From the human T2T-CHM13v2.0 reference genome, Homo sapiens: 64,000 nt of DNA. The stretch's first letter is position 1. Every line of letters begins with the position of its first letter. This document shows positions 28,851 through 49,415 of the stretch, in pieces. Location of the stretch: assembly GCF_009914755.1 (NCBI RefSeq), contig NC_060926.1. The stretch is one strand, 5' to 3'. Under the pieces are notes generated by a model. That model was not told the DNA's origin. It saw nothing but the letters and a program-made list of their open reading frames with translations, and ran no database searches. The position numbers were made by a program, and so were the translations under genes.

Positions 28851-31800
28851 TTGACTTTTTATCTCTGGTTTTTATTTTTTTCCCGTTTTCTTTTAATGTT
28901 GTTTCTTCCTCTTCTCACATCAGTTGTGACTTTTCTTCCTCCTCTGCGAGCCCGAAGGCCACCTCATTAGTGCTCCTGACACTGCGGAACTTTTCTTTCT
29001 CAAGGCTGTTGTCACTGGGGATGGTTGAAAGTGACTATTTTCCTAAGAAAACAGCTGGAGGGGACATGGGAGCAAGAAGGTGCTTGGGAGCGCATCTCAG
29101 TGTTGAGGCTCAAAACAGGCAGCGCCATGGCAGAGTCATTCCGCCGTCACCCTGAATAAACCCCATGCACACAGACGAGAACAATGTCTCCTCAGAGGGA
29201 GGGTCTGGGAGACCGGACACCATGCAGAGACCCCCATCAGCTCATCAGAGAGCTTCACGGAGATGTTCTGGGAGGACAATCACATTCATAAATACGCCGG
29301 TGCCTCGGCTCTGCCGCTGACTGCAGCATGACATGAAGCCTTTTTTAAGAACTGGCTGCTGCCGCCAAAGCCTTCTGGGATATGTCTGCCTGGAACCTGG
29401 GCACCTCCTGGGAGCAGTCACTGGGTGGCCTGTCAGGGCCTGTGGGGTCCTGGGGCAGGGCCGGCAACTGGAAGCCAGCCCTGGGGAGGAAAGGAGAGAA
29501 GGGCAAGGCTGGGCTGCTTTCCTCACAGCCCCTGGACACTGAGGGAGGAGCTGAGTTGGGCCTGGGGCTGCCATGTGTCAGACAGTGGTGATGTGATGGG
29601 GGGACACAGGTCAGTGGCAGGGTACTGGGAGTTTCCCCTTTCCTTTCTCAGTTCTTTGCACCCATTTTCCATGGGCTGCCTCCCCAGATCCAGAAGCCCC
29701 AGCAGCCCCTCACCCCAGCAGTGGAAAAAGCCCGTCATTGACACGGCTGTGGGTGGCCGGCTTTGCAAAAGCCTCACATTTGGGGCTTTGGAGGGCTTTT
29801 TGCATTTCATCTTTACACAGGCTCCTGCACCTCATTCCTCTTGCCCTCCTCTCAGCTTTCCTCCCACTTCCAGTTAGAGAGATGGCAGCTCTGGCAGGAC
29901 CAAATATTGATGTTTATCACAGTTTTAGGGCCATTTGTCTCACCATCTGAAGGGCTCAGCGCAGGCCCACGGGATCCTCTCTCCTTGAGTGACCTCTGGG
30001 GGCAGGTATCTGGTTTGGATGCTGGAGCTGGTCCCTACTCTTCCCTTGGGGGCCGTGCGGCCGGGTGCTCAAGTGTTTTAACCTCAGGACCCTGATTAGT
30101 TATCATGAAGCTACCCCACCAGCTCCTGGGTCTGTTCATGGATTAGTGGCATAAAGGACGTAATATTGTTTTGCAAAATCTGCTCTCCCTCCCGTGTCTC
30201 CTGCCCAAGAAGTTGGTCTTCGTGGGGCCAAAGGCAAGGAGGACCCGAGGAAGGAAGAGGAACCACTGTCCCCAGCCCCTGGTATGGCATGGCGTCAGCC
30301 TAGTGACCAGAAATTGCTTTTGAACTCTGAGGCTTCCAGAGGACAAGAGGAAGAGGAGGACAGGGCTGCCCTGCCCACTGCTCAGCCTTGAGCCCTGCAC
30401 CTGGCACAGTGCGAGGCCTCAGACAGGGTGTCAGCAGGCCCTGGCTCCCCACATCCCATCCTTAAACAGGCCATGCCCTTTCTACCTGCCCCAGCAGACC
30501 AGAAAGCAGTTTCCATGGGAAACAACAAACCTTCCTTGTGCTCCCAGGATAAGTGTTTCTAGAGGGTGAAGTCGGGAGCCATTCTCTCCTTTAACATCTT
30601 GCCACCTCTGCCCAGAATTCACAGCCACCGGCGCCTGTCTTAGCTGCCCTGGCTGTCAGCCCCACCAGAGCCCCTCCTGGCTGCTCTGCTGAAAGCTGGT
30701 CAGACTGTCTCACTCCATCCCCTACTTAGCTCCCCTAAGGCCTAGGGGGCTCCCTACAGGCCAAGGGATGAGGCCAGACTCAATAGAACACCTGATAGGC
30801 CCCCCAAGTGACCTGGCCCTGGCCGGTCACTCCCTATGTCCCAATTTACACCCCAGCAGCACAGAACTCCTTGCTCAAAGGGGCTATTTTTGGCCTCTGT
30901 GCTCATGCCATCCCTTCTGCCTGGAATGCCCTTCTCCACTGTCTGTCTGGCTAACTCCTGCTCATTCTGGAAGGCTCAGCTCCTCCTGAAAGCCCTCCCT
31001 GACCCCAACCCCAGCTCCTTCCTCAGGGTGTCGTAGCACAGGGATGCTTTTGGTCTAATTCAGGAGAGCATCATGTGATATGCTTTTAAAGTAATGAGTT
31101 AAAATGTTAGACAATATGAAACTCTATTATGTGATATATTAGATTTCATGTCATTACATTGTATTATATTATATTTTTAGGTGGTATGCTATGTGACATA
31201 GGATGCGATGTGATATTACATCCCATGACACTATGTTACACAGTGTTGGATTAAATGCCTGTGTCTCTGGCTAGACTGTGAGCCCCTTTCTCTTTGTGTC
31301 CTGTCTTCTGGCACATACTAGGGCCCCCAAATAATGACACACCATTCTTTCCACTAAAATCCACACTGCTAGGGCTGAATGTCCCTATGCTGATGGCAAG
31401 GGACATTCCCTTCTAGGGAAGGATTAACTAGGGGCTTTAGGACACAGCTAGGGAGATGCCCCTGGGCTCTCCTGTGCTCCAGTTGGGCTCATACCCTTGT
31501 TCCCTTGAATCTGCAAGGAAAGCACTGTGTTTCAAATAACAGAAACCCCTCAAGCAGCAGCTTAAACTAACAGGGGCTGGCATTTTTCATAGTTCAGAAA
31601 TCAGCTGCTCCCTGGGATCCAAGAGTCCAGGCTTCTTTTGATCTTTGCCTCATGGCTGCAGAGTGGTTGCCACAGCACCGAGCTTTTCATCCTCAAGCTG
31701 CATCTACAGTCAGGGTAGGGGGCCATGCTAGGAAGAGTGTTTCTCCTCACCAGGGCAGTCAGTCTTGCCCAGACAGCCCCTCCCTTCCTCCAAAGGAAGA

Positions 31801-35183: not shown

Positions 35184-37380
35184 CTGGCTCTGCAGTGCGG
35201 CCATGGGCCTTTTGAGCTGCTGGCATCTGGAAGAGCAGTGAAGCCAAGTGCGATGACCGGACAGCATCGCAGGATGGAAGCAGATGGGAAGCCGCAGCAG
35301 CTGCCTGCAGCTTCGCCTGGGCCAGCTCGACCCTCACAATGCCCCACGCTGGGGGTGAGCTGGGGTGGGGGGCAAGAAAGACAGATAGACTGATGGATAT
35401 GGAGAGAAAAACAAAGAAGAGGCCAAGGAAGAGTTGGCAGAGACACACAGGCAGAGCATGGAGAGGGAGACAGCTCGGCAGCCAGAGAGAGTGGCCTGCA
35501 GCCTGAGAAGGCGTCAGCATGGCATGGCTGCCTCTGCAGGCCCAGTGGGCTCCTCTAAGCTCTGGCCCTGGCCCTGGGGGTGCTGGGCCTCCCACTGCCA
35601 GCCACCTTCCCTTAGGCTCCAGGAGTCAAAGGCCAAGATTTTCTTAGAACCAAGGAGGTGACAGCTGGCTGGATGGCTTGGGGACCTGCCGTTCCTGTTT
35701 GCCAGTGAGGAAACTGAGGTCTGTAGGGGTTAAGGGTCTACCTTGCCCTGCTGCATCCTAGCAATGTGGCCTAGGGCAAGTGAGGTCACCACTCAGGCCT
35801 CCATTTCCTCATCTGCAACATGTGTGCAGCGGTAGGCACCTCCCAGGAATTGCAAAAGACAACGCATGCAAACAAGTGTGGCACGGTGCCTGGCAAGGAG
35901 CCGCCCTCCGTAAATGGTGGCACTGAACACTAATGCACTTGCTTCTGTTCCCAGGCCCTGGGAGGATGGGGTGCTCGTGGTGGAGGTGTGTGGGGTAGGT
36001 GAAGGGACCGTGGCAATCACACCGACAACCATTCGTGGCGTAAGGGGATGTAGGAGGAATTGGGATAAAGAGCTTCGGGAGTTCAGAGGAGGCACCTGTT
36101 GTCCCCACCTTGCGGTGGGTGTGGGGCTGGTGGGGGTAAGAGGGTGGACATGAGCAGGCCCTCATTGTCCTGGACTAGGGAGGCAGCAAGGACTCCAACT
36201 GGCAACCCCCAGCCCCAGCCCTGCACTTGTGGAACCTACATTCTAGTGGGTGGAAGTAACTCAAAGTAAGGGCCTGCAACACTGTGGAGTACATGGTAGG
36301 TGCTCAAGAAATGCTAGCCTAGGATACCTGGGACCCAGCACCACCTCTAGCATCTTAGCACAAGAAGGGCTCCCCCAGGTTACCTGCTCTCATCCTCAAC
36401 ATTGCCTGATGCAACGATTGTTTCTTACTGATAGGAAAGTTCTTCTGCACGGCCTTGACTGACTCCGAGGTTTGCAAACATCCACTGGCTTCAGTGAAGG
36501 AGGGGTTTGACCACTGGCCCTACCTTGCTCCTGACCTGGGGCCTGTGGGGCAGCTGTCTGCACAGCACGGCTGAGGCCTGTGCCAGTCCCCTCCTCTCTG
36601 GTGAGCAGCCTTGAGAAATACAGAAAGGACTGGGCGGAATCCACAGCAGCAGCCAGCAACGGTGGTCCTCAGCTTTCCCCTAGAGTTAGACTGTAAGCTG
36701 CCGCAGTGCCTGGGACAGGACTGGCCCCTATTAGGAACTAATGCATCTTTGTTGAATAAATGACTTTTTCTCCCCATTCTTGGTCCCCAGGCCAACTGTC
36801 CTGGCTCACTAAAGGCTCTGGCCATAACTGAAACTCTTAGACACTCGGGACCTTGAAGGGCCCTCCAAGCCCGGACACAGCACTATCCTCGATTCATGCC
36901 ATGTTCCCGCCCCCCGCAAATAGCAGCCAATTCCAACTGCTCATAAATTTCCTGCCTGTCACCCATGGCACCCAGGCCAGGCAGGCAGGAGGTGCTGGAG
37001 GCCGACTGGTCCATACTTGCTTCCAGGTCCCTGGGGAGCTTGGAGGCCAGAAGCCCAGGCTTTGCGCCTGTGCCCAGAATAACCTCTGCAAAGTCTGTCC
37101 CTTGGAGAAGATGTGAAAGCAGATCTGTCAAACGCAAGGATGTCCAGGCTTGAGTGTTAAAGAAAACACCAGTGCAGCTTATGATGCAGCTTGTACAGCG
37201 TAATTCCACTTTTCGTAAAATACTGTATGTGAGTACGCATATGCATGGGAATAGCATATGGGACAATAGTTAACCAAATGTTATCAGTGGTTTGCTCTCC
37301 GTGGAGAGATTAAGGTGATTGAAACAATTTTCTTTCTGTTCACTCTTCTGTATTTTCTTTTTCTTTTTTTTGAGGCAGAG

Positions 37381-37642
37381 CACTTTGGGAGGCTGAGGTG
37401 GGCGGATCACTTGAGGTCAGGAGTTCAAGACTAGCCTGGCCAACATGGTGAAACCCCGTCTCTACTAAAAATACAAAAATTAACCGGGTGTGATTACATA
37501 CGCTTGTAATCCTAGCTACTCGGGAGGCTGAGACTGGAGAATCATTTGAACCCAAGAGGCAAAGTTACCGTGAGCCAAGATCACGCCACTGTACTCCAGC
37601 CTGGGTGGCAGAGTAAGACTCTGACTGAAAAATAAATAAATA
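37381..37642 (+). mobile_element. 5'-truncated AluS fused to an antisense Alu tail remnant
   Basis: Starts at CACTTTGGGAGGCTGAGG and ends in an (AAAT)n tail; preceded by T-rich + GAGGCAGAG. Confidence 0.9.
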
Positions 37643-38721: not shown

Positions 38722-39169
<448 letters not shown>

Positions 39170-39291: not shown

Positions 39292-39969
<678 letters not shown>

Positions 39970-40614: not shown

Positions 40615-41176
40615 GTCAGTTGGGAAACTGGGTCATTAAAGCCACACAAATTTGTTTACTGCAGGACTTTTCGGAGCCTTTGACATGCTAATACATACAG
40701 TGACTTTCCAAGTGGGACCAAGGTATGTGGTATTTCCCAAACTCATGGAATGCCTCACCTAGCTGGTGTTCACAGAACACCTTTTGGGCAATGCTAATCT
40801 GCCTCCCCTCCCCTCACTGTACAAGTGACGGAATGAAGGCACAGAGCGGGAGAGTGAGTTACCCAAGGTCACACAGCTGCTGAATTGCAGAGAAAGTCCT
40901 GGCACCTGAGGCCTCCTAGTGTTCTTCCCATTACATCCCAGTTGTCATAAGACTTCCTTGGATGGATGATGTATGTGCTGAGATTCTTGGACCGAGGTGG
41001 TGGTGGTCCAGTGTAGACGCCAGGAAAAGGGTGAGGTCGAGAATTGAAGGTCAGGCCTTGGTGAGAGAAACCCCTGTCTCCTTTAATCCTGGATGGTAGC
41101 TGTGGCTTCAGCGGGGACTAAGAGCCAACAGACGGCTTGGGGCTGGCCCCAGGCTGCCCTGACCGCCTTTACAGCA

Positions 41177-41280
41177 TGCCCAGGAGGACGGCTCCAGCCA
41201 ACCCAGCCTCCCCTTCTTCCTCAGGCCACGGGCAGGCTGAACAAGAGAAAAACCTTTTCTGCCCATGGCAGGGCCCGCCC
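41177..41280 (+). repeat. Left arm of non-Alu inverted repeat (intron 2)
   Basis: Aligns to the reverse complement of 43807-43912 with 7 mismatches and 2 gaps over 106 columns (manual alignment). Confidence 0.95.
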
Positions 41281-42946
41281 AGGCAGCCAGCGCCGGGATG
41301 ACGCGAGCTGTAAATCACCCCGTGGACCACAGACCCAGTGCCATCCCCACGGGTTTCCTTTCCGCTTCTTAATCCTCCTCCTCAGACTCGGTAACACAAA
41401 GCAGATTCCTGCTGGGGCCAGCCATGCACAGTGGGCTTGGAGAATGTGAGCCTGGGATTTACCACATCAAGATGCTCCCGCCTCTCACTTTTCCTTTTCT
41501 CCCTCCTGAGCCACTATTAGCTGGAGAGCACTCCCTCCCTCTGGCCCGGCTCCCTCGCCCTCCTTGGACCCCACTTCAGCCTTGCCCCAGACTTGCGTCT
41601 TGGCTGGCTGCCCCGGCCCACGGGGCTCACCAGGGCCTGTGGTTAGCAGGCCCTCCACGTCGTGGTTTGGCTCCATCCTGGCTCCCCAAGCCTCTGTCTC
41701 AGTGAGAGCAGCCTCTGTGTGGTAGAATGAACACTGCCGATCTGGATTCAAATCCTGGCACTGGCAACTTCTAGCACTTCCTTCTCGGAGCCTGGGATTG
41801 CTCACTCATGAGAGGGGGGAATGGGAATGCTCCCTGGCAGGTCGGAGGTGCCTGACAGATGTTTTGCTTTAAAAATAACTACTTATTAATAGCTGTTGGT
41901 TGAGGGTTGGAGCACGAATCAAAAGGGTGTTTGGAGTTGCTTTAAGAGGGTTATGTTGTACCAGGTTCAGGGACTTTGTTATTTTTCATCCTGGGTGGAT
42001 CTGGAGGTCTCACAGAGCCTCCCCACCGGCTCTGACCTCCCCAGAGAGCTAAAACCCCACAGGCCCCATGACCTTGCCCCCTGTCCCATCCCTTCCTGGT
42101 AGCCAGTTACACCGTCTGCTCAGAGCGCCAAGTTCAGCTGCCAGAATGAGGATTGCACAGATCAGGGCTGCAGGGAACTTAAAGGTGGTCTAACCCAGCA
42201 ATTTTCGAACTGTGCTCCTTAGCACCCTGATTCTCAGACATGTCCCAGGCTCTCTGTTGGAAGGAATGCAATAGGTCTCTGGGTCCCCCTTCCTCTGTGT
42301 CCCCTGACTCCACTGCAATCAAATAGACAGACACATGTTTTCTGTGTTAGTGTTCCATGTACTTCATTCTCCTGCTTAAAAGGAGCTTTCATCGATCTGC
42401 TCCAGCCACGCCATTTTACAGATGAGGACACTGAGGCCTAGAGAAGTCAAATGACTTGTTTTAGGTCACCCAGCTGGCAGGTGAATGTGCTACAACTAGA
42501 GTGGGCCTTGTGACTCCTAGGGCAGCGCAAGGAAGCTGCAGATGGCCATTCCAGTGGGACTGAGCCTGCAGAGGAGCCTGCCACCCCAGGGTGGGGACGG
42601 GCCTCTGAGATCCCTCAGAGGGGTGGCCCTGGGGATTGTGGTGTCAGCCCCAGGTGTCCCCGAGCTTCCAGCGGCCCTGGCTCCCACTACCCACTGTGGT
42701 CCTCTTCTTTCCCCAAACCAACCAAAACGCAGGGCCTCTGAAATGCAGCACTAAGGAACAGGGGGACAGTGTGGGCTCTGGAGGCAGCCAGGCCGGGGTT
42801 TGAATCCTGGCTCTTCCACTTATCGAACCCTTCAAGGTGGGGGCCCCTCTGCCTGGAGGACTCAGTGAAGGGACATTCTGCAGCTGTCCAGAAACAGGAA
42901 CCAGGTGGAGCAGGGGCAGCTTTTAATGGCTGGTCATGTCTTTCAG

Positions 42947-42952
42947 GAGTGA
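42947..42952 (+). CDS. ATOH8: ATOH8 coding part of terminal exon 3: Glu321 + TGA
   Basis: Acceptor TTTTAATGGCTGGTCATGTCTTTCAG|GAG TGA gives ...AKKRKE*, 321 aa total, matching the recalled ATOH8 length and C-terminus. Confidence 0.9.
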   Translation, partial: E

Positions 42953-43806
42953 CTGGCTGCAGGCAAGACCAAGGCCACCACTGTGGGCCCTCCTTCCAGT
43001 CAGGCCTGAGGACAAGGTGAGCTCGCTGAGTCCAGCCTCGTGGTCTTCTCCAAGATGCCGCCAGATGCCCAGCCTACAGCCTCTCAGGGTCGGATCGGAG
43101 CACGCCTGCCTCCCTCTCCCCTCCGCCCTCACCCAGCCAATCCGAGGCTGCTTCGCACTTTGCCCTCTGCCTGGTGGGGAGGGGAGAGCTCAGCCCCCGA
43201 CTCACTCAGACCCCAAGGCCCACTGTCCAGCTGCAGAAATTCGTTGCCAAAGATTGGACAGAGACACCGAAGGAAATGGGGTGGTGAAACCCCACAGCGA
43301 AAAGCCACACCGTTGCTCTGTGACTTTTGCTCCTCCTGTTGCCTGAGCCCCATCTCAAGCCAAAGATGAGTCAGTGGTTCTGCTAGGAACTCATGGAATG
43401 GATGGGCATTTGATGACCCCTGGGGGTCATCTTGGCCCTCTGACCTGGTGCTCTCTCTCCACTGGGCCTTGTGCTGGCTGAGTGCAAGACAAGCCTTAGG
43501 GGCTGTGAGAGGGAGGCTGGGGTGCCTGGGCGGGGCTGGGAGTGGGACCTGAGATCCCTGCCCACTCTCTCCCCTTCATTGGCTGCCCAGGCCACTGGCC
43601 CCAGTTCTCAGTGTCCCTTGGGTCCAGGCTCCTTGGGCCCTAAGCATCACCAGAAGGGAGTAAGCAGGGAGAGAAGCAATATTACTCCCTCCCCTACACC
43701 AGGGACTTGCCCCAGGGCAGCTACCTATGGGTCTTTGCTTCCCCAGCCAGCCTCTCCTCACTGTGACCCACCCCCATGGGCCCCCGTCCCAGGCAGCCAG
43801 CACCAT

Positions 43807-43912
43807 GGGCAGGCCCTGCCATGGACAGAAAAAGAGTTTTTCTCTTGTTCAGCCTGCACGTGGCCTGAGGAAGGAGTAGAGGCTGGGTTGGCTGGAGCCG
43901 TCCTACTGGGCA
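43807..43912 (-). repeat. Right arm of non-Alu inverted repeat (3' UTR)
   Basis: Reverse complement TGCCCAGTAGGACGGCTCCAGCCAACCCAGCCTC...CATGGCAGGGCCTGCCC matches 41177-41280. Confidence 0.95.
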
Positions 43913-44101
43913 AGATGGCGCCCCACTTGGAGGGCGGTGGTCTGTTACAGGGTGTGCAGGGGCAGAGAAGGAAGGGACCAGGGGACTGGGCCAGTATGTG
44001 GAGGATGGGGCCTGCGTGTTCAAAGCCAAGGCCCGCCCCTTCCTTGTGCTCAAATGGCCAAAGCTGTTCACGTCTGTGCTCAACCATCTGCTTCAAATTG
44101 A

Positions 44102-44107
44102 AGTAAA
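44102..44107 (+). terminator. Proximal variant poly(A) signal AGTAAA
   Basis: Known variant hexamer followed by GU-rich CTTGTGTTGAGTGGACTCTGTGGGTG at 44131-44156. Confidence 0.5.
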
Positions 44108-45689
44108 AGCCCCAAAATGTCAAGAAAATACTTGTGTTGAGTGGACTCTGTGGGTGACCAGGACTTTGGCCGGTCATCAGCTGGGGAGTGTGAGGGAGGG
44201 GGTTGGTTTCTACCTACAGGTTGAGAGCCCTTCAGGATCAGGCGCTGTCCGAGTGAGAGTGTGTGTGTCTGTGTGTGGAAGGGGGTGGAGGGCGGTTCCC
44301 ACAGTAGTCTCAGCCTGGACTAGTGACCAGGAGGCCTGGTCAGGAACACATGAGGAGCCCTCTCTGTCCGCACTGCACTCAATCTGTACCATGGATTTAT
44401 GAGATAGGGGCCCCTATTATTAACCCCGTTTCACAGATGGGGTAACTGAGGCCTCAAGTAGACAGGGTCAGTCGGTGACAGAGCCAGTCATCGAATCAGG
44501 ATGGGCTCACTTCAAATCCTGTGCTCTCAAACCTTTTCCAGCCCCATCACCAGTCCCAGCCCAAAGTCTCTTGTGTGGCCTTGTCACATTGCTTCACCTC
44601 AGCGGGCCTAAGGTAGGGACAATAAAGGCCCATTGGGACTGGGGGAAGGGGTGATAAGATAAAAAATAGGAGAGCACTGTCAAGGCAGAAGGGACAGGGC
44701 TGGCCAAGGAAAGGGGGATAGGAGGGGACCGGAGGCTGCAGCCATACAGGACACAGTTTGTCCCTTGGTTTCACCAGTGTCACTTTCTCGTCTCTGCTGC
44801 TCAGACTCCTGGGCTGGGCTGGGGCTGGCTGCAGGGAGCCCCCCTTGCAGTAGCGTTTCTCAGGCTGGCCCTTTACCAAGGACCACAGTGTCCATGCTGT
44901 CTTGGATCCCTAGGCTGGCACAGAAACAGGGGACCCAGGTGGCCCTGAGCACTCCTCAGAGCAAAGGTGCTCTGGAAGCAGACTGGACAGAGTGGGCATG
45001 GAATGGGGCCAGGAGGGTCTGTTAGGAAGGTTCAGCCACCCTGTGAAGCTGGCACAGATAACAGCACTGCTCTGTTGTCCCTCGGAGCCTCTGAGTAACC
45101 CTGATGGCACTTCCTAAGGCAGCAGGACATGTGGACTGACCAGCATCAAACTGTTGACATAGAAGACCATTTCTATTACCAAAGGGAGTGTACCCCATTC
45201 TGCTGCCAAGGGAGCAAACCCATGGCCTTACCACCCAGAAAGAGCCCATCCTCCACCTCCTATCCCCCTCCTGCATACATACTTCATTACATGTTTCCCT
45301 TTCATTCTGAAGCATCATTGATGACCAGCTGCCTGTCAGACACTAAGATAGGCAGTGGGAATGAAGAGATGGATCTTGTGTCATGCATGGCATCACGGAG
45401 CTCTGGGTTCTGTACGGAGGGTGGGACAGACAGGTAGACAAGCAAATAATTATGATTATAGCAGATGACTAAGGTGTTGTCGGGAGCTTCAGGAAAGGAA
45501 GAACTAACTCTTGGGGAGGTTCTCAGGAAGGATTTCCCTGGAAAGTAGCCATGGGACTTGCGTCTTAAATGGTGAGTAAAAGCTTTCTGAGCAGAGGAGT
45601 AGGAAAAGGGCTTTCTATGCAGAGGAGCACTCAGCGCTGGCAGGAAATTGGAATCACCCAAGGAGATTATTAAATATTAAATATTGATA

Positions 45690-45820
45690 TGAAGTATTGA
45701 TGCCCAATTTCATCTCCAGAAATTCTGATGTATTGGTCTAGGGTGTTGCCTGGTCATTGGGATTTTTACAAGCTCCTCAAGTGATCTTAATGTGCAGGCA
45801 AGGTTGAAGCCGCTGGTCTA
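45690..45820. mobile_element. MER5-like hAT-Charlie fragment in 3' UTR
   Basis: CCAGAAATTCTGATGTATTGGTCTAGGGTG...GTGATCTTAATGTGCAGGCAAGGTTGA. Confidence 0.65.
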
Positions 45821-47415
45821 AGTGGGGTCTGGTCTACGATAAGAAAGTGACTTTGAGCCATCGATTTGGGAGACAGGCTCTGGGTGGATGTGTGTGTGTG
45901 CACACATATGTATGTATGTGGATGACTAAAAGTGCATGCTCTCCTCTCCTTTCCCAGCTTCCTCTCCAGCACAGCAACTTGTGTTCGTATGCACACACAT
46001 GCACACTCTCTCTCATGGGCACATGCATACCCACACACACTCGTGTACATTTCCAGAAAATGGAATTACATTTCAGATAGATTCAGATTCCAACGGCAGT
46101 CTTCTAAACACTTTTATGCAAGCAGCCATTCAAGGAGACCCTCAGCAAAATATAAATGACGAGGAGCTGCCCTCATGGGGCCCTGTGAAAGCACTTTGCA
46201 GTCCAGCCTTGGGTTTGTGGTCACAGAGTCACCTGTGGATGTTTGTAGCACACTCTCCTTGTCTTGTCTGCTCTGGGTCACCAGGCACAGGCCATAAAGG
46301 GATGAGGGGGCCCTCTCCAGGGGCCCGCAAGATCTTCCTGGGTATGTCTGCATGAAGCCCCACGTGTGCACACCCATCTTCATGTGTGTGTGTGCCAGCC
46401 TCCTGCTCTCTGCAGAACAAAACCAGAAGGAATGGCTCTGGGAGTTGGAGATCTCAGCTCACAGGCCAAGCTTTGCAAGACTCTCCAAAGACTGCCCACA
46501 GACTGTGCTGCTTCCTGGGTCTGGCCTGAGACTATCCCAGAAGAGAGGGTTAAATTCTGGAGGTGAGGTTTTGAGCAAGTGTTCATCCCCCCACACTATG
46601 CTCCTTCCTGTCTCCATGGCCACATCCTTCAAGGCTCTGTGCTGTTCTCTTTTTTTCTGGATTTCTCCACCTCCACCAAGTTCCCCTTTCTCACAGCTAG
46701 TGGAGGCATGAGTAGGCAGGTCCCAGGGGCTGGGAACTGGGTAGCATTGCCATGTGCAGGGACTGTGTTGGGAGCTGCAGGTACAGAGCTCCTCTGTGCT
46801 CAAGAGCTTGCCGGTGAGCCTGGACGGAGGCATAGGTGCAGCTAATTAGGATAAGACAGGGGCCGCGCTGTGGTCAGCCGTGGGAAGCCGGCGAGGGGAC
46901 TGGAGTTGGGGCTACACTTGCCTCCCTCCTATGCTGCTTCCTGAGCCACGAAGTGGTCATTGCCAGCATCCCAGGCAACAAACAGCAAGACTCAGACATC
47001 TCCAAGGAAACCCTTTGAGTGGATCTGTACCGTTGTTCTCGTCTTGCTCTCTTGCTGCCCTGCCACCTTCACAGCTGCTTTCTGTTTCCTGGTTCCAGGA
47101 AGACAGCGGGGCACAGGGTCCCTGCTTTGTGAGGAGCAGCTGGCTTCTCCCTTTGCCCCCAGGTTTTGCCCTCCCACATGTCTCCCTTCTGGTGACCCGG
47201 ACCCCAGACAAACTATGCCTGCCTCCCTGAAGCCAGGCATCCTGAGGAACTTGATAGACAAACAATGACAGTGTTTTCCAGAACTGTGGGTACGTGTCTA
47301 ATCTCAGATGGTACTATGAATTCCTGGAGATCAAAGTTTGGATCTAATTCAACCCCTGATCCTCGAAACGGCTTTCTTGCAAAGTGTATATATTGGTTTC
47401 TTTGCTGAATGAATG

Positions 47416-47421
47416 AATAAA
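47416..47421 (+). terminator. Distal poly(A) signal AATAAA
   Basis: Canonical hexamer followed ~25 nt later by U-rich CATTTTTGTTTTCTT downstream element. Confidence 0.75.
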
Positions 47422-49415
47422 ACATGGAAAATGTGGTAATTCACTCATTTTTGTTTTCTTCCTTCCACAAATAACTCCCAAGCATCTAATTTGTTCAAGA
47501 CCTGGAGAAAACAGGACCCAGGCCAGGTGATCTTTTATATGGCTTCGGAGAGGCTTGAAGGGAGAGGGGCTTAGAGCCGAGAGAAGCCTGGCCTTGGACC
47601 TTTTTGCTCTTTATGTGGCCGAGTCTTTGAGAACTGAGCGAAGAGGACAGCATCACAGCACACGTGCTGGCACACAGGCACTGAATGAACAGTTACTGAA
47701 TGTGTAGATGAGTGAATGAATGCCGCCAAGCCTCCTTACAGCCCTGCCTCGGACATCACTAATCAACAGTGGCTCTTTTTCTCCAGGGGCTCCTACACTG
47801 CCTGAATTCCGCTCCAGACAATGCTCCAAGCAGTTACTACTAATGGATCGGAGAGATGAGCTCCCTCTGCCGCCCTGGTCCCGTGGCCTCCCTGGAGTGG
47901 GCCAGCCTCCTCGGGCCACCCCAGCATGGCGTGTTTGAGGTGATGTCAGGAGCTTCAACTTCACTGTTGCTCACGGGCCATGTGGCTGCCTCCTGACTGG
48001 CCTCTCTGTCAATGGTCTGTGACTTCCAACCCTGCCTCTGCCATGGCTGATAGGGGTTTATTTCCAAACTTCCTCCCTGGGCCCATTGCCTCCAGACTAC
48101 AGCCCAGGCTCCTTAGCTGACCATCATGATGGTCTTGTGTGCCCTCCAGGTCCACAACATCTCCCTGTCGCCACTGTCTGGGCATGCCCACAGCTTGGCC
48201 GTCTGGGGGTGGTGGCCAAATCCCATCCTGAGATATCATTAACAGCCCCTCTTTCTCAGCCGTGGCCCTGTGTCCTTCTCTCTGGCTGCCCATGAAACAA
48301 GATTCTTTCTTATCTTAATGTTTGCTGCAAAGGAAGCAGTTTCTTTTTGTCCTAACATTACCCGGCGTTGTATCCCGCCTAGCGCCTGGGTCCCCGGGGA
48401 ACTCTAGTTCTTTCAATCCCAGAACCTGGGGCGGACAGAGAGGCCCTACTTAACCTGGCAGCAACAACCTAGATGGCCGCCCTTCTGCCCTCGGGGCTCA
48501 TCTTGCCTTTTCACATATAAATAAAAACATTTCCACTCCCACGCCATGTTCAGTGGGAAGCCAGCCCGGCATTGCCCGTGTCTCTGAGGATTCTCGAGGG
48601 ACTTACATCCTTGGCTTTGATCTTTGGGGCCCACTGAATTCATCTCTTGCTCAGCGGCTCCCTATGGCTTCCTCCTTCTCTCTACTTTGTGGCCCTCAAG
48701 GGAACACACACACCTTTCCTCAGTTTCCCCAAAACATCCCTCACCCAAGGCAGTGGTGTGGAGAGGAATTATTTTTTCCATTCCTGATGAATCTTTTTAA
48801 ATGCTTACATGCATGAAAAAACAAACAGGACCTTGCCTTTTACTTCCTAACTTATGCAGCTGATTTCATGTATTTTTGACAGGTTCATCATGTTTCTGGC
48901 AGTTGTAACTTTTTTCCCTTCTGGCTTCACTCCCTGGTGCTACATTTCTGGGCTGTGACTCACCCAAGGTTGTCTCACAGCTGGCACTTAAATCTAGTAT
49001 TTTTTCTTCATTCTAACATCTTCCCCTGCCCCCCTTCATGCCCATCACCACCAATATGGTGGCTAATGGATAGACTATGAGCAAATACAGCAGCTGGTGA
49101 GGGCGCTCACCCACCCTCGGCGGCGCAAGTATCCAGGATCTCACCTCCAGGAGGAAAGATGCACCTCCCTGGACGAGCCAGCCTCTCCCCGGGCTCTCTT
49201 GTCACCAAGGCTTGTCCAAAGGCAGCAGATGGGCCACACAGCGGGGAGTGAGGCCAGGACAGAGCCTGCCCCCTCCCCAAGAAACCGGCAGAGCCAAGCC
49301 TGTGCCCCCAACCACCTCCAAAGCCATCTGGCCCACAGACAACATGCTTTCATCCTTTGGGATTTCATTTCCAGCACCACAACCAGAAGTTTCTAGAGAA
49401 TTCCCCTCTGGCAGG

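What the first reader, a model, noticed from the sequence alone, without database searches (positions are those of the whole stretch)
41177..43912. Unique ~105-bp inverted repeat brackets the ATOH8 terminal acceptor and stop codon: candidate long-range RNA stem
Seen: 41177-41280 (intron 2) and 43807-43912 (3' UTR) are reverse complements with 97/106 matching columns, and I recognise neither arm as a transposon. In the pre-mRNA they could form a ~100-bp duplex looping out ~2.5 kb that contains the exon 3 acceptor (42946/7), the stop codon and a cryptic donor (43017). The duplex can exist only before intron 2 is removed, because one arm is intronic. Three mismatches place a 3'-UTR A opposite an intronic C, a context ADARs favour. 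Established: long complementary regions around exons can promote skipping, back-splicing or A-to-I editing. Inference: this may be a structural switch on ATOH8 3'-end processing.
Basis: partly seen in the sequence, partly recalled or inferred. Interest (0 to 1): 0.8.

Follow-up and report, generated by a model that had tools for sequence, protein, structure and literature searches.

The report
Known primate inverted repeat around ATOH8 exon 3
A real, genome-unique 105-base inverted repeat brackets the last splice acceptor of human ATOH8 and could form a long RNA duplex before splicing. It was already described in 2011 with the same splicing idea, and nobody has yet tested what it does.

Summary
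Bases 41177-41281 (intron 2) and 43806-43912 (3' UTR) are reverse complements: 98 of 107 columns match, blastn E 6e-37, and 2,524 nt lie between the arms. The arms are not a dispersed repeat, because the T2T genome holds only these two copies. As RNA they form 99 pairs (-206 kcal/mol; shuffles -65 +/- 6). The duplex survives in the minimum-energy fold of the whole 2.9 kb stretch and closes a loop holding the exon 3 acceptor, the stop codon and a donor-like site. The three 3'-UTR A opposite intronic C mismatches are real.

The feature is already in print. A 2011 PLoS One paper (PMC3150394) reports highly complementary sequences in primates, a "loop acceptor" in this intron and a "loop donor" in exon 3b. 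It proposes that the loop blocks exon 3b splicing, and a 2022 review repeats this. I found no experiment, editing report or circRNA report.

New here: the pair is unique in the genome. A 34-column direct repeat abuts the inner arm ends, which suggests a template-switch origin. Arm divergence fits a primate age.

Most likely this is a lineage-specific inverted duplication that can form nuclear pre-mRNA dsRNA. A regulatory role is unproven.

The parts
41177..41281 (+). Left arm of the inverted repeat, in ATOH8 intron 2. It is presumably the 'loop acceptor' of PMC3150394.
   Evidence: 91.6% complementary to the right arm; only two copies in the genome
43806..43912 (+). Right arm of the inverted repeat, in the 3' UTR of exon 3 (exon 3b). 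It is presumably the 'loop donor'. It carries both one-base insertions and all three A.C-mismatch adenosines (43811, 43825, 43878).
41282..43805 (+). The 2,524-nt stretch that the duplex would loop out. It comprises the last 1,665 nt of intron 2, the acceptor, the last codon and stop, and the first 859 nt of exon 3.
   Evidence: 99 inter-arm pairs kept in the minimum-energy fold of 41100-44000
41261..41294 (+). Left copy of a short direct repeat. It overlaps the inner 21 nt of the left arm and runs 13 nt beyond it.
   Evidence: 28 of 34 columns; 0 of 500 shuffles and 2 of 1,602 real windows reach its score
43772..43804 (+). Right copy of the direct repeat. It ends one base before the right arm, so 43772-43912 can be derived entirely from the contiguous source 41177-41294.
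42947..42952 (+). Coding part of exon 3 (GAG TGA: Glu plus stop), just after the acceptor tttcag| at 42946/7.
   Evidence: hub annotation
43012..43022 (+). Donor-like site AAG|GTGAGC, with the junction at 43016/43017. No listed transcript uses it.
   Evidence: hub annotation lists no exon ending at 43016
42408..42449 (+). Fragment of an old dispersed repeat (MIR-like; the name is recalled) inside the loop. It indicates that the loop DNA is older than the arms.
   Evidence: family D1; 7,550 genome matches against 1 for the reversed control

Best explanation
This is a genuine inverted duplication of about 105 bp that occurs nowhere else in the genome. It is the 'loop acceptor / loop donor' pair already reported for primate ATOH8. 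It is not a transposon pair. It most likely arose in a primate ancestor through a local replication or repair template switch that copied about 118 nt of nearby DNA, partly forward and mostly in reverse complement. One copy lies in the last intron and the other in the 3' UTR. In unspliced ATOH8 pre-mRNA the arms can anneal into a 99-pair duplex that closes a 2.5-kb loop holding the last acceptor and the stop codon. The expected consequence is that nuclear dsRNA-binding proteins, above all ADARs, bind it, leaving A-to-I marks on the arm that stays in the mRNA. A regulatory effect on splicing or 3'-end choice is possible but unshown. The default reading is a neutral or nearly neutral structural by-product. 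Shown here: the repeat, its uniqueness, its folding energy and its position. Inferred: its origin, its age, duplex formation in cells and editing.
For: Repeat and significance. Uniqueness: the genome search found 2 of 2 matches at this locus. The core 25-mer with up to 3 mismatches matched only the 2 arms, with reversed control 0. A second 22-mer with up to 2 mismatches gave 7 matches: the 2 arms plus 5 scattered places with two mismatches each. The positive control shows the method does detect old repeats (7,550 matches). No target-site duplication lies at either choice of outer boundary, and the inverted homology stops sharply (111 of 500 and 220 of 500 shuffles reach the flank scores). Duplex: 99 pairs, helices of 7/26/18/22/5/3/13/5, -206.1 kcal/mol, retained in the 2.9-kb minimum-energy fold. 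Both arms lie in one transcript. No poly(A) hexamer lies between 42947 and 43912, so every 3' end of exon 3 includes the right arm. Origin: a direct repeat abuts the inner ends of the arms. Age: 7 substitutions in 105 sites gives K 0.070, about 35 Myr at 1e-9 per site per year, with a 95% interval of 13-69 Myr. This fits the published 'in primates'. Prior description: PMC3150394 sections 5 and 13 and PMC8773363. This pair is the only significant complementarity between intron 2 and exon 3b. Class: a genome-wide dsRNA prediction preprint lists 497,429 non-repetitive human dsRNAs, of which 4,597 are edited. The edited ones have medians of 144 bp, -184.8 kcal/mol and 87.5% paired. Edited repetitive dsRNAs have a median loop of 2,035 nt.
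Against: No data on RNA duplexes, editing or splicing could be consulted, so duplex formation in cells is inferred from energy alone. The longest uninterrupted helix is 26 bp, a little under the 30-bp median of edited non-repetitive dsRNAs. The 2.5-kb loop is much longer than their 509-nt median. The direct repeat behind the template-switch reading is short, was noticed after the fact, and 2 of 1,602 unrelated windows score as high. Which arm is the copy cannot be told without an outgroup. I could not see Fig 1B or Table S1 of PMC3150394, so identity with its loop acceptor/donor pair rests on location and on this being the only such pair. A pair that has stayed 92% complementary in a gene with alternative 3' exons could be under selection. 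One genome cannot rule that out.
Confidence: 0.65

Rival explanations
1. The duplex is a working primate-specific switch. When it forms, it hides or loops out the exon 3b acceptor. Last-intron removal is then delayed or diverted to an upstream terminal exon, or the transcript is retained or edited, which tunes ATOH8 output. This is the reading of PMC3150394 and of the first reader.
For: The duplex is very stable and encloses exactly the terminal acceptor and stop codon. ATOH8 has alternative 3' exons (hub table). One paper reports an isoform with a different C-terminus and opposite activity, and says how that isoform is chosen is unknown (PMC8035989). Looping out exons by flanking complementary sequence is an established way to alter splicing (recalled).
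Against: No experiment exists in the two papers that mention the pair. The alternative terminal exon at 28924-31275 is transcribed about 12 kb before the left arm and about 15 kb before the right arm. The choice can therefore be made long before the duplex exists (inference from coordinates). Of the 7 substitutions between the arms only 1 keeps pairing (U.G) and 6 break it, so nothing suggests selection for the helix. A terminal exon has no downstream acceptor to skip to.
Confidence: 0.15
2. The repeat acts at the DNA level. It might form a 'DNA loop' or cruciform, as PMC3150394 phrased it, or serve as a substrate for inversion of the 2.5-kb segment.
For: PMC3150394 calls it a potential DNA loop. 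Inverted repeats can in principle mediate inversions.
Against: Two 105-bp arms 2.5 kb apart in duplex DNA have no plausible way to pair with each other, because extrusion would require unwinding kilobases (established physical reasoning, recalled). Arms this short and 8% diverged are poor recombination substrates (recalled). An inversion would destroy the exon 3 acceptor.
Confidence: 0.04
3. The arms are two copies, or the terminal inverted repeats, of a transposable element.
For: The geometry resembles terminal inverted repeats. No repeat library could be run here.
Against: Only two copies exist in the whole genome. There is no target-site duplication. The interior holds an old dispersed repeat fragment and an exon that PMC3150394 finds across eutherians, yet the arms are 92% alike. 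The arms are not in the hub's list of masked stretches of 100 bases or more (hub note).
Confidence: 0.03

Closest known systems
'Loop acceptor' / 'loop donor' complementary pair of primate ATOH8 (PMC3150394, PLoS One 2011; repeated in PMC8773363, 2022)
   Same: Same gene and same places: one element in the intron before exon 3b and one within exon 3b. It is described as highly complementary and found in primates, with the same proposal that the loop hinders exon 3b splicing. It is the only such pair in the locus.
   Different: The paper calls it a DNA loop and gives no energy, copy number, origin or age in the text I could read. Its coordinates are in Fig 1B and Table S1, which I could not open.
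Inverted Alu pairs in introns and 3' UTRs (ADAR editing, exon skipping, back-splicing, nuclear retention; recalled knowledge)
   Same: Two complementary arms a few kb apart in one pre-mRNA form a long imperfect duplex. The loop length is similar to the 2,035-nt median for edited repetitive dsRNAs.
   Different: The arms here are 105 nt, unique in the genome and much more alike (92%) than the Alu-like pairs in this window (70-84%). One arm is intronic and the other exonic, so the duplex cannot survive splicing.
Non-repetitive intramolecular dsRNAs of the human transcriptome (dsRNAscan preprint, PMC11838218)
   Same: Non-repeat arms. The stem energy and percent paired are close to or above the medians of the edited class (-184.8 kcal/mol, 87.5% paired, against -206 kcal/mol and about 93% here).
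   Different: The stem is shorter than the edited median (105 against 144 bp), the longest helix is 26 against 30 bp, and the loop is 2,524 against 509 nt. Editing is unknown. ATOH8 is absent from the one supplementary file held.
Hairpins and inverted copies created by template switching during replication (PMC5453318, PMC8794818, PMC10710096; search listing and opening of abstracts only)
   Same: An inverted copy of nearby sequence creates a ready-made long stem. A second short segment copied in the other direction sits at the junction.
   Different: Those papers' titles call the events short or short-range. That they act over tens to hundreds of bases is recalled, not seen. Here source and copy are 2.5 kb apart, and the ancestral state could not be examined.

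Membership tests
Published ATOH8 loop acceptor / loop donor pair (PMC3150394) | One element in the intron between exon 3a and exon 3b, and its complement inside exon 3b | tested here: met
   The arms lie at 41177-41281 (intron) and 43806-43912 (exon 3, which spans 42947-47443). This is the only significant inverted match between intron 2 and exon 3b. Paper text.
Published ATOH8 loop acceptor / loop donor pair (PMC3150394) | Same sequences or coordinates as in the paper's Fig 1B and Table S1 | not testable with these tools
   Table S1 is a .doc file that cannot be read here, and figures are not held.
Published ATOH8 loop acceptor / loop donor pair (PMC3150394) | Present in primates | not testable with these tools
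   No other primate genome is held. The arm divergence (K 0.070, about 13-69 Myr at 1e-9 per site per year) is compatible with a primate age.
Transposon terminal inverted repeats / MITE | Target-site duplication flanking the outer ends | tested here: not met
   The longest exact flanking repeat is 0 at both boundary choices.
Transposon terminal inverted repeats / dispersed repeat family | Further copies elsewhere in the genome | tested here: not met
   Searches found only the two arms. The positive control with a MIR-like 25-mer found 7,550 places. The tool warns that its counts are lower bounds.
Inverted Alu pair | Arms are Alu elements of about 300 nt | tested here: not met
   The arms are 105-107 nt. 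They match none of the roughly ten 300-nt repeat copies in the window and nothing else in the genome.
ADAR-edited intramolecular dsRNA | Long, mostly paired duplex between two parts of one transcript | tested here: met
   99 pairs, -206.1 kcal/mol, both arms on the + strand within the ATOH8 transcription unit.
ADAR-edited intramolecular dsRNA | Clusters of A-to-G mismatches in RNA reads on both arms | not testable with these tools
   No RNA-seq data or editing catalogue is held. Full-text searches for ATOH8 with editing terms gave nothing relevant.
Template-switch / templated inverted insertion | Inverted copy of nearby sequence with sharp ends | tested here: met
   Homology ends abruptly at both ends. 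The source and the copy are 2.5 kb apart.
Template-switch / templated inverted insertion | Junction signature of a second switch (adjacent segment copied in the other direction) | tested here: inconclusive
   A direct repeat of 28 of 34 columns abuts the arm. 0 of 500 shuffles and 2 of 1,602 real windows reach its score. It was noticed after the fact.
Template-switch / templated inverted insertion | Ancestral allele lacking one arm | not testable with these tools
   No outgroup genomes are held.

The most novel reading that the evidence does not exclude
The pair is a primate-born RNA latch on the last step of ATOH8 processing. Once polymerase passes 43912, the arms snap together, delay removal of the last intron and recruit ADAR. 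Editing of the three 3'-UTR adenosines that face cytosines would tighten the helix, while editing elsewhere would loosen it. ADAR level would thereby set how much ATOH8 mRNA, or which 3' isoform, leaves the nucleus. A stem made in one mutational step by template switching would then be an example of instant birth of a regulatory RNA structure in a developmental transcription factor gene.
Probability: 0.1. Interest if true: 0.55.

Novelty: already known. Interest (0 to 1): 0.2.

Why it matters
ATOH8 is a developmental and cancer-linked transcription factor. One paper reports an alternative isoform with the opposite effect on metastasis and says its regulation is unknown (PMC8035989). A long non-Alu duplex around the terminal acceptor is a concrete, cheaply testable candidate regulator, and a clean natural case for asking what an intron-to-3'-UTR duplex does. 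But the pair and the splicing idea have been in print since 2011. Thousands of non-repeat dsRNAs of this kind are catalogued, and nothing yet shows an effect.

Tried and rejected

2. Rfam over 40900-44200 at E up to 1 gave 1 match: NPPA-AS1_3 at 41399-41502 on the minus strand, 19.3 bits against a gathering score of 55. It lies outside the arms and is taken as chance.

3. I looked for extension of the inverted homology beyond the arms and found none.

4. Transposon reading: no target-site duplication and no further copies.

5. 'A 2.5-kb insertion into an older palindrome', which the pattern arm-direct repeat ... direct repeat-arm suggests at first sight, is rejected. The interior holds an old dispersed repeat fragment and an exon reported across eutherians, while the arms are 92% alike. 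There is also no poly(A) tail at either junction (sequence view).

6. Literature: ATOH8 with A-to-I/ADAR, with 'inverted repeat' (2 papers), with circRNA/back-splicing and with 'RNA editing' (9 papers). From the listings, none concerns this structure. I saw only the listings.

7. Table S1 of PMC3150394 is unreadable. The one readable file is Table S3, which is irrelevant.

8. The dsRNAscan preprint has one supplementary file held, and it does not mention ATOH8.

9. I tried to place the published ATOH8-V1 isoform (60-residue tail). None of the 5 alternative exon forms in the hub table gives such a tail directly after exon 2; they give 1, 7, 7, 29 and 8 residues. Read-through of the exon 2 donor gives 13 residues. 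This is unresolved.

10. All 8 unpaired right-arm residues are A (7) or U (1), and all unpaired left-arm residues are G or C. A naive test gave P 3e-4. I reject that null. Given GC-to-AT mutation bias, the real question is 6 against 1 substitutions between the arms, which is not significant (my arithmetic).

11. I considered sampling the genome for a base rate of unique inverted repeats but did not do it. The preprint's counts were used instead.
Full report
**1. Is it there?**

Yes. The repeat finder reports two overlapping inverted pairs that are one gapped repeat. A gapped alignment and blastn place the arms at 41177-41281 and the reverse complement of 43806-43912. The alignment has 107 columns, of which 98 are identical, 7 are mismatches and 2 are one-base gaps. 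Identity is 91.6% and E is about 6e-37. The spacer is 2,524 nt.

In a self-comparison of the whole 64-kb window, 30 inverted matches of 60 nt or more passed the filter, and the 25 best were listed. Among those listed, this pair has the highest identity. The other 24 listed are repeat copies of about 245-320 nt at 70-84% identity, which are Alu-like. The family name is recalled, not tested.

**2. Is it a dispersed repeat?**

Not detectably.

- The window's own complete assembly was searched with one arm, and both of the 2 matches are at this locus.
- A 25-mer that is identical in both arms, allowed 3 mismatches, matched only the two arms. The reversed control matched 0 places.
- A second shared 22-mer, allowed 2 mismatches, matched 7 places: the two arms and 5 scattered places with two mismatches each. 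That is roughly what chance gives.
- As a positive control, a 25-mer from an old repeat fragment inside the loop (42414-42438, MIR-like; name recalled) found 7,550 places against 1 for its control. The method therefore does see old families.

The tool warns that its counts are lower bounds, and no repeat library could be run. There is no target-site duplication at either plausible outer boundary. The inverted homology ends sharply: flank alignments score no better than shuffles, with 111 of 500 and 220 of 500 shuffles reaching the observed scores. Rfam has nothing on the arms.

**3. Anatomy as RNA**

Both arms are on the strand that ATOH8 transcribes. Together they form 99 pairs (98 Watson-Crick and one U.G) in helices of 7, 26, 18, 22, 5, 3, 13 and 5 pairs. 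These helices are interrupted by:

- G.A at 41184/43905
- a 2x2 loop at 41211-12/43877-78
- G.A at 41231/43858
- bulged A at 43835 and at 43829
- C.A at 41262/43825
- C.A at 41276/43811

The 2x2 loop contributes a third C.A (41211/43878).

The duplex energy is -206.1 kcal/mol, against -64.6 +/- 6.0 for 200 shuffles of one arm. Each arm alone folds at about -37 to -38 kcal/mol. In the minimum-energy fold of 41100-44000 all 99 inter-arm pairs persist.

The loop contains the acceptor tttcag|GAGTGA (42946/7), the one-codon coding end with its stop, and a donor-like AAG|GTGAGC at 43016/7. No poly(A) hexamer lies between 42947 and 43912. The first are AGTAAA at 44102 and AATAAA at 44621, and the annotated end follows AATAAA at 47416. 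Every exon 3 mRNA therefore keeps the right arm.

**4. It is already in print**

The PLoS One paper PMC3150394 (2011) has a section 'Gene structure of vertebrate ATOH8'. [quoted passage not shown] One lies in the intron between exon 3a and exon 3b (the 'loop acceptor') and the other in exon 3b (the 'loop donor'). [quoted passage not shown] The discussion adds that once the loop forms, access to exon 3b splicing may be blocked, so that exon 3a would have to be used. I read sections 5 and 13 in full and other passages.

A 2022 review (PMC8773363) repeats this in one sentence (passages). A full-text search for ATOH8 with 'loop acceptor' finds only these two papers. Neither reports an experiment on the pair.

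The coordinates are in Fig 1B and Table S1, which I could not open. Identity therefore rests on location and on this being the only significant complementarity between intron 2 and exon 3b (the next best inverted match is 19 nt, E 0.087).

Searches for ATOH8 with editing, inverted-repeat or circRNA terms gave nothing relevant (listings only).

**5. Origin (inference)**

Just inside both arms lies a short direct repeat: 41261-41294 against 43772-43804. It matches in 28 of 34 columns, including a 16-of-17 core. No shuffle out of 500 reaches its score, and 2 of 1,602 unrelated windows of the real sequence do. It ends one base from the right arm.

The left copy overlaps the inner 21 nt of the left arm, which are themselves nearly palindromic. 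The whole right-hand block 43772-43912 can therefore be written as a forward copy of 41261-41294 followed by a reverse-complement copy of 41177-41281. Both come from one contiguous 118-nt source. The reverse direction, from right block to left block, needs the same number of steps, so the donor cannot be named without an outgroup.

Two segments copied in opposite directions from one nearby source is what replication or repair template switching produces. Papers on that process say it can create RNA hairpins in one step (listing and the opening of abstracts only).

An alternative that the layout suggests is a 2.5-kb insertion into an older palindrome. It is rejected because the interior holds an old dispersed repeat and an exon reported across eutherians, while the arms are 92% alike.

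**6. Age**

There are 7 substitutions in 105 aligned sites, which gives K = 0.070. At 1e-9 per site per year this is about 35 Myr, with a Poisson 95% interval of 13-69 Myr. At 0.5e-9 it is about 70 Myr. The rates are recalled values. This fits the published restriction to primates. Error-prone copying at birth, or gene conversion since, would bias the estimate.

**7. Does anything point to function?**

One genome says little. Of the 7 substitutions one keeps pairing (U.G) and six break it, so there is no sign that the helix is being preserved.

All unpaired right-arm residues are A or U and all unpaired left-arm residues are G or C. Given GC-to-AT mutation bias this amounts to a 6-to-1 split between the arms, which is not significant (section 'tried and rejected').

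The geometry argues against the published version of the switch. The alternative terminal exon at 28924-31275 is transcribed about 12 kb before the left arm and about 15 kb before the right arm. Commitment to it can therefore precede the duplex by minutes (inference; elongation rates recalled).

What the duplex could do is slow removal of the last intron and attract dsRNA-binding proteins. A genome-wide dsRNA prediction preprint (PMC11838218; passages and Table 1) lists 5.13 million predicted human dsRNAs. Of these, 497,429 are non-repetitive and 4,597 of those are edited. The edited non-repetitive class has medians of 144 bp, 30 contiguous pairs, -184.8 kcal/mol, 87.5% paired and a 509-nt loop. 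Edited repetitive dsRNAs have a median loop of 2,035 nt.

The ATOH8 stem is as stable and better paired than that edited class, but it is shorter (105 bp, longest helix 26 bp) and its loop is long (2,524 nt). It is a plausible but unproven ADAR substrate. That A.C mismatches are favoured editing sites is recalled knowledge.

**8. Verdict**

'Not a transposon' holds. The long-range RNA stem is thermodynamically sound. But the pair and the splicing hypothesis have been published since 2011, the class (non-repeat intragenic dsRNA) is catalogued in the thousands, and no evidence of function exists.

I put about 0.65 on a lineage-specific structural by-product that forms nuclear dsRNA without a shown regulatory role, and about 0.15 on a real splicing or processing switch. 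The rest goes to DNA-level or transposon readings and to explanations not considered. Interest is low, and novelty is 'already known'.

Noticed in passing
window 42408-42449 and 44423-44464: Two fragments of an old dispersed repeat (MIR-like core; name recalled), 76% alike. One lies in the loop and one in the 3' UTR. A 25-mer from the first has 7,550 matches in the genome at up to 3 mismatches.
   Followed up: partly
window 37379-37623 / 38780-39025 and 38798-39041 / 39366-39607: Inverted pairs of Alu-like copies of about 245 nt, 82-83% alike and 1,157 and 325 nt apart, lie within ATOH8 intron 2. The last copy ends just before MIR6071 (39662-39739, minus strand). These are ordinary candidate dsRNA and editing substrates in the same pre-mRNA.
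   Followed up: no
window 28924-28929 and 42947-42952: The alternative terminal exon starting at 28924 begins TTG TGA, and exon 3 begins GAG TGA. After exon 2 (phase 0) both add a single residue (Leu or Glu) and stop. This does not fit the 'novel C-terminus' that PMC3150394 expected for exon 3a, nor the 60-residue tail of ATOH8-V1.
   Followed up: partly
window 43016/43017: A strong donor-like motif AAG|GTGAGC lies 70 nt into exon 3, inside the loop. No listed transcript uses it. Together with the flanking inverted repeat it would allow a 70-nt back-splice in principle.
   Followed up: no
window 43811-43905 (right arm) against 41184-41276 (left arm): Every unpaired residue of the right arm is A (7) or U (1), and every unpaired residue of the left arm is G or C. 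The left arm is 63.8% G+C and the right arm 57.9%. This may reflect GC-to-AT decay concentrated in the 3'-UTR copy, or errors made when it was copied. It is not significant under a fair null.
   Followed up: partly
window 41399-41502, minus strand: A weak Rfam match to NPPA-AS1 conserved region 3 (19.3 bits, gathering score 55, E 0.28). It is taken as chance.
   Followed up: no
window 22487 onward: A purely mechanical scan of intron 2 for AG sites in phase 0 with a pyrimidine-rich upstream stretch found one site that would add a 61-residue tail after exon 2. That is close to the 60 residues reported for ATOH8-V1. There is no evidence that the site is used.
   Followed up: no
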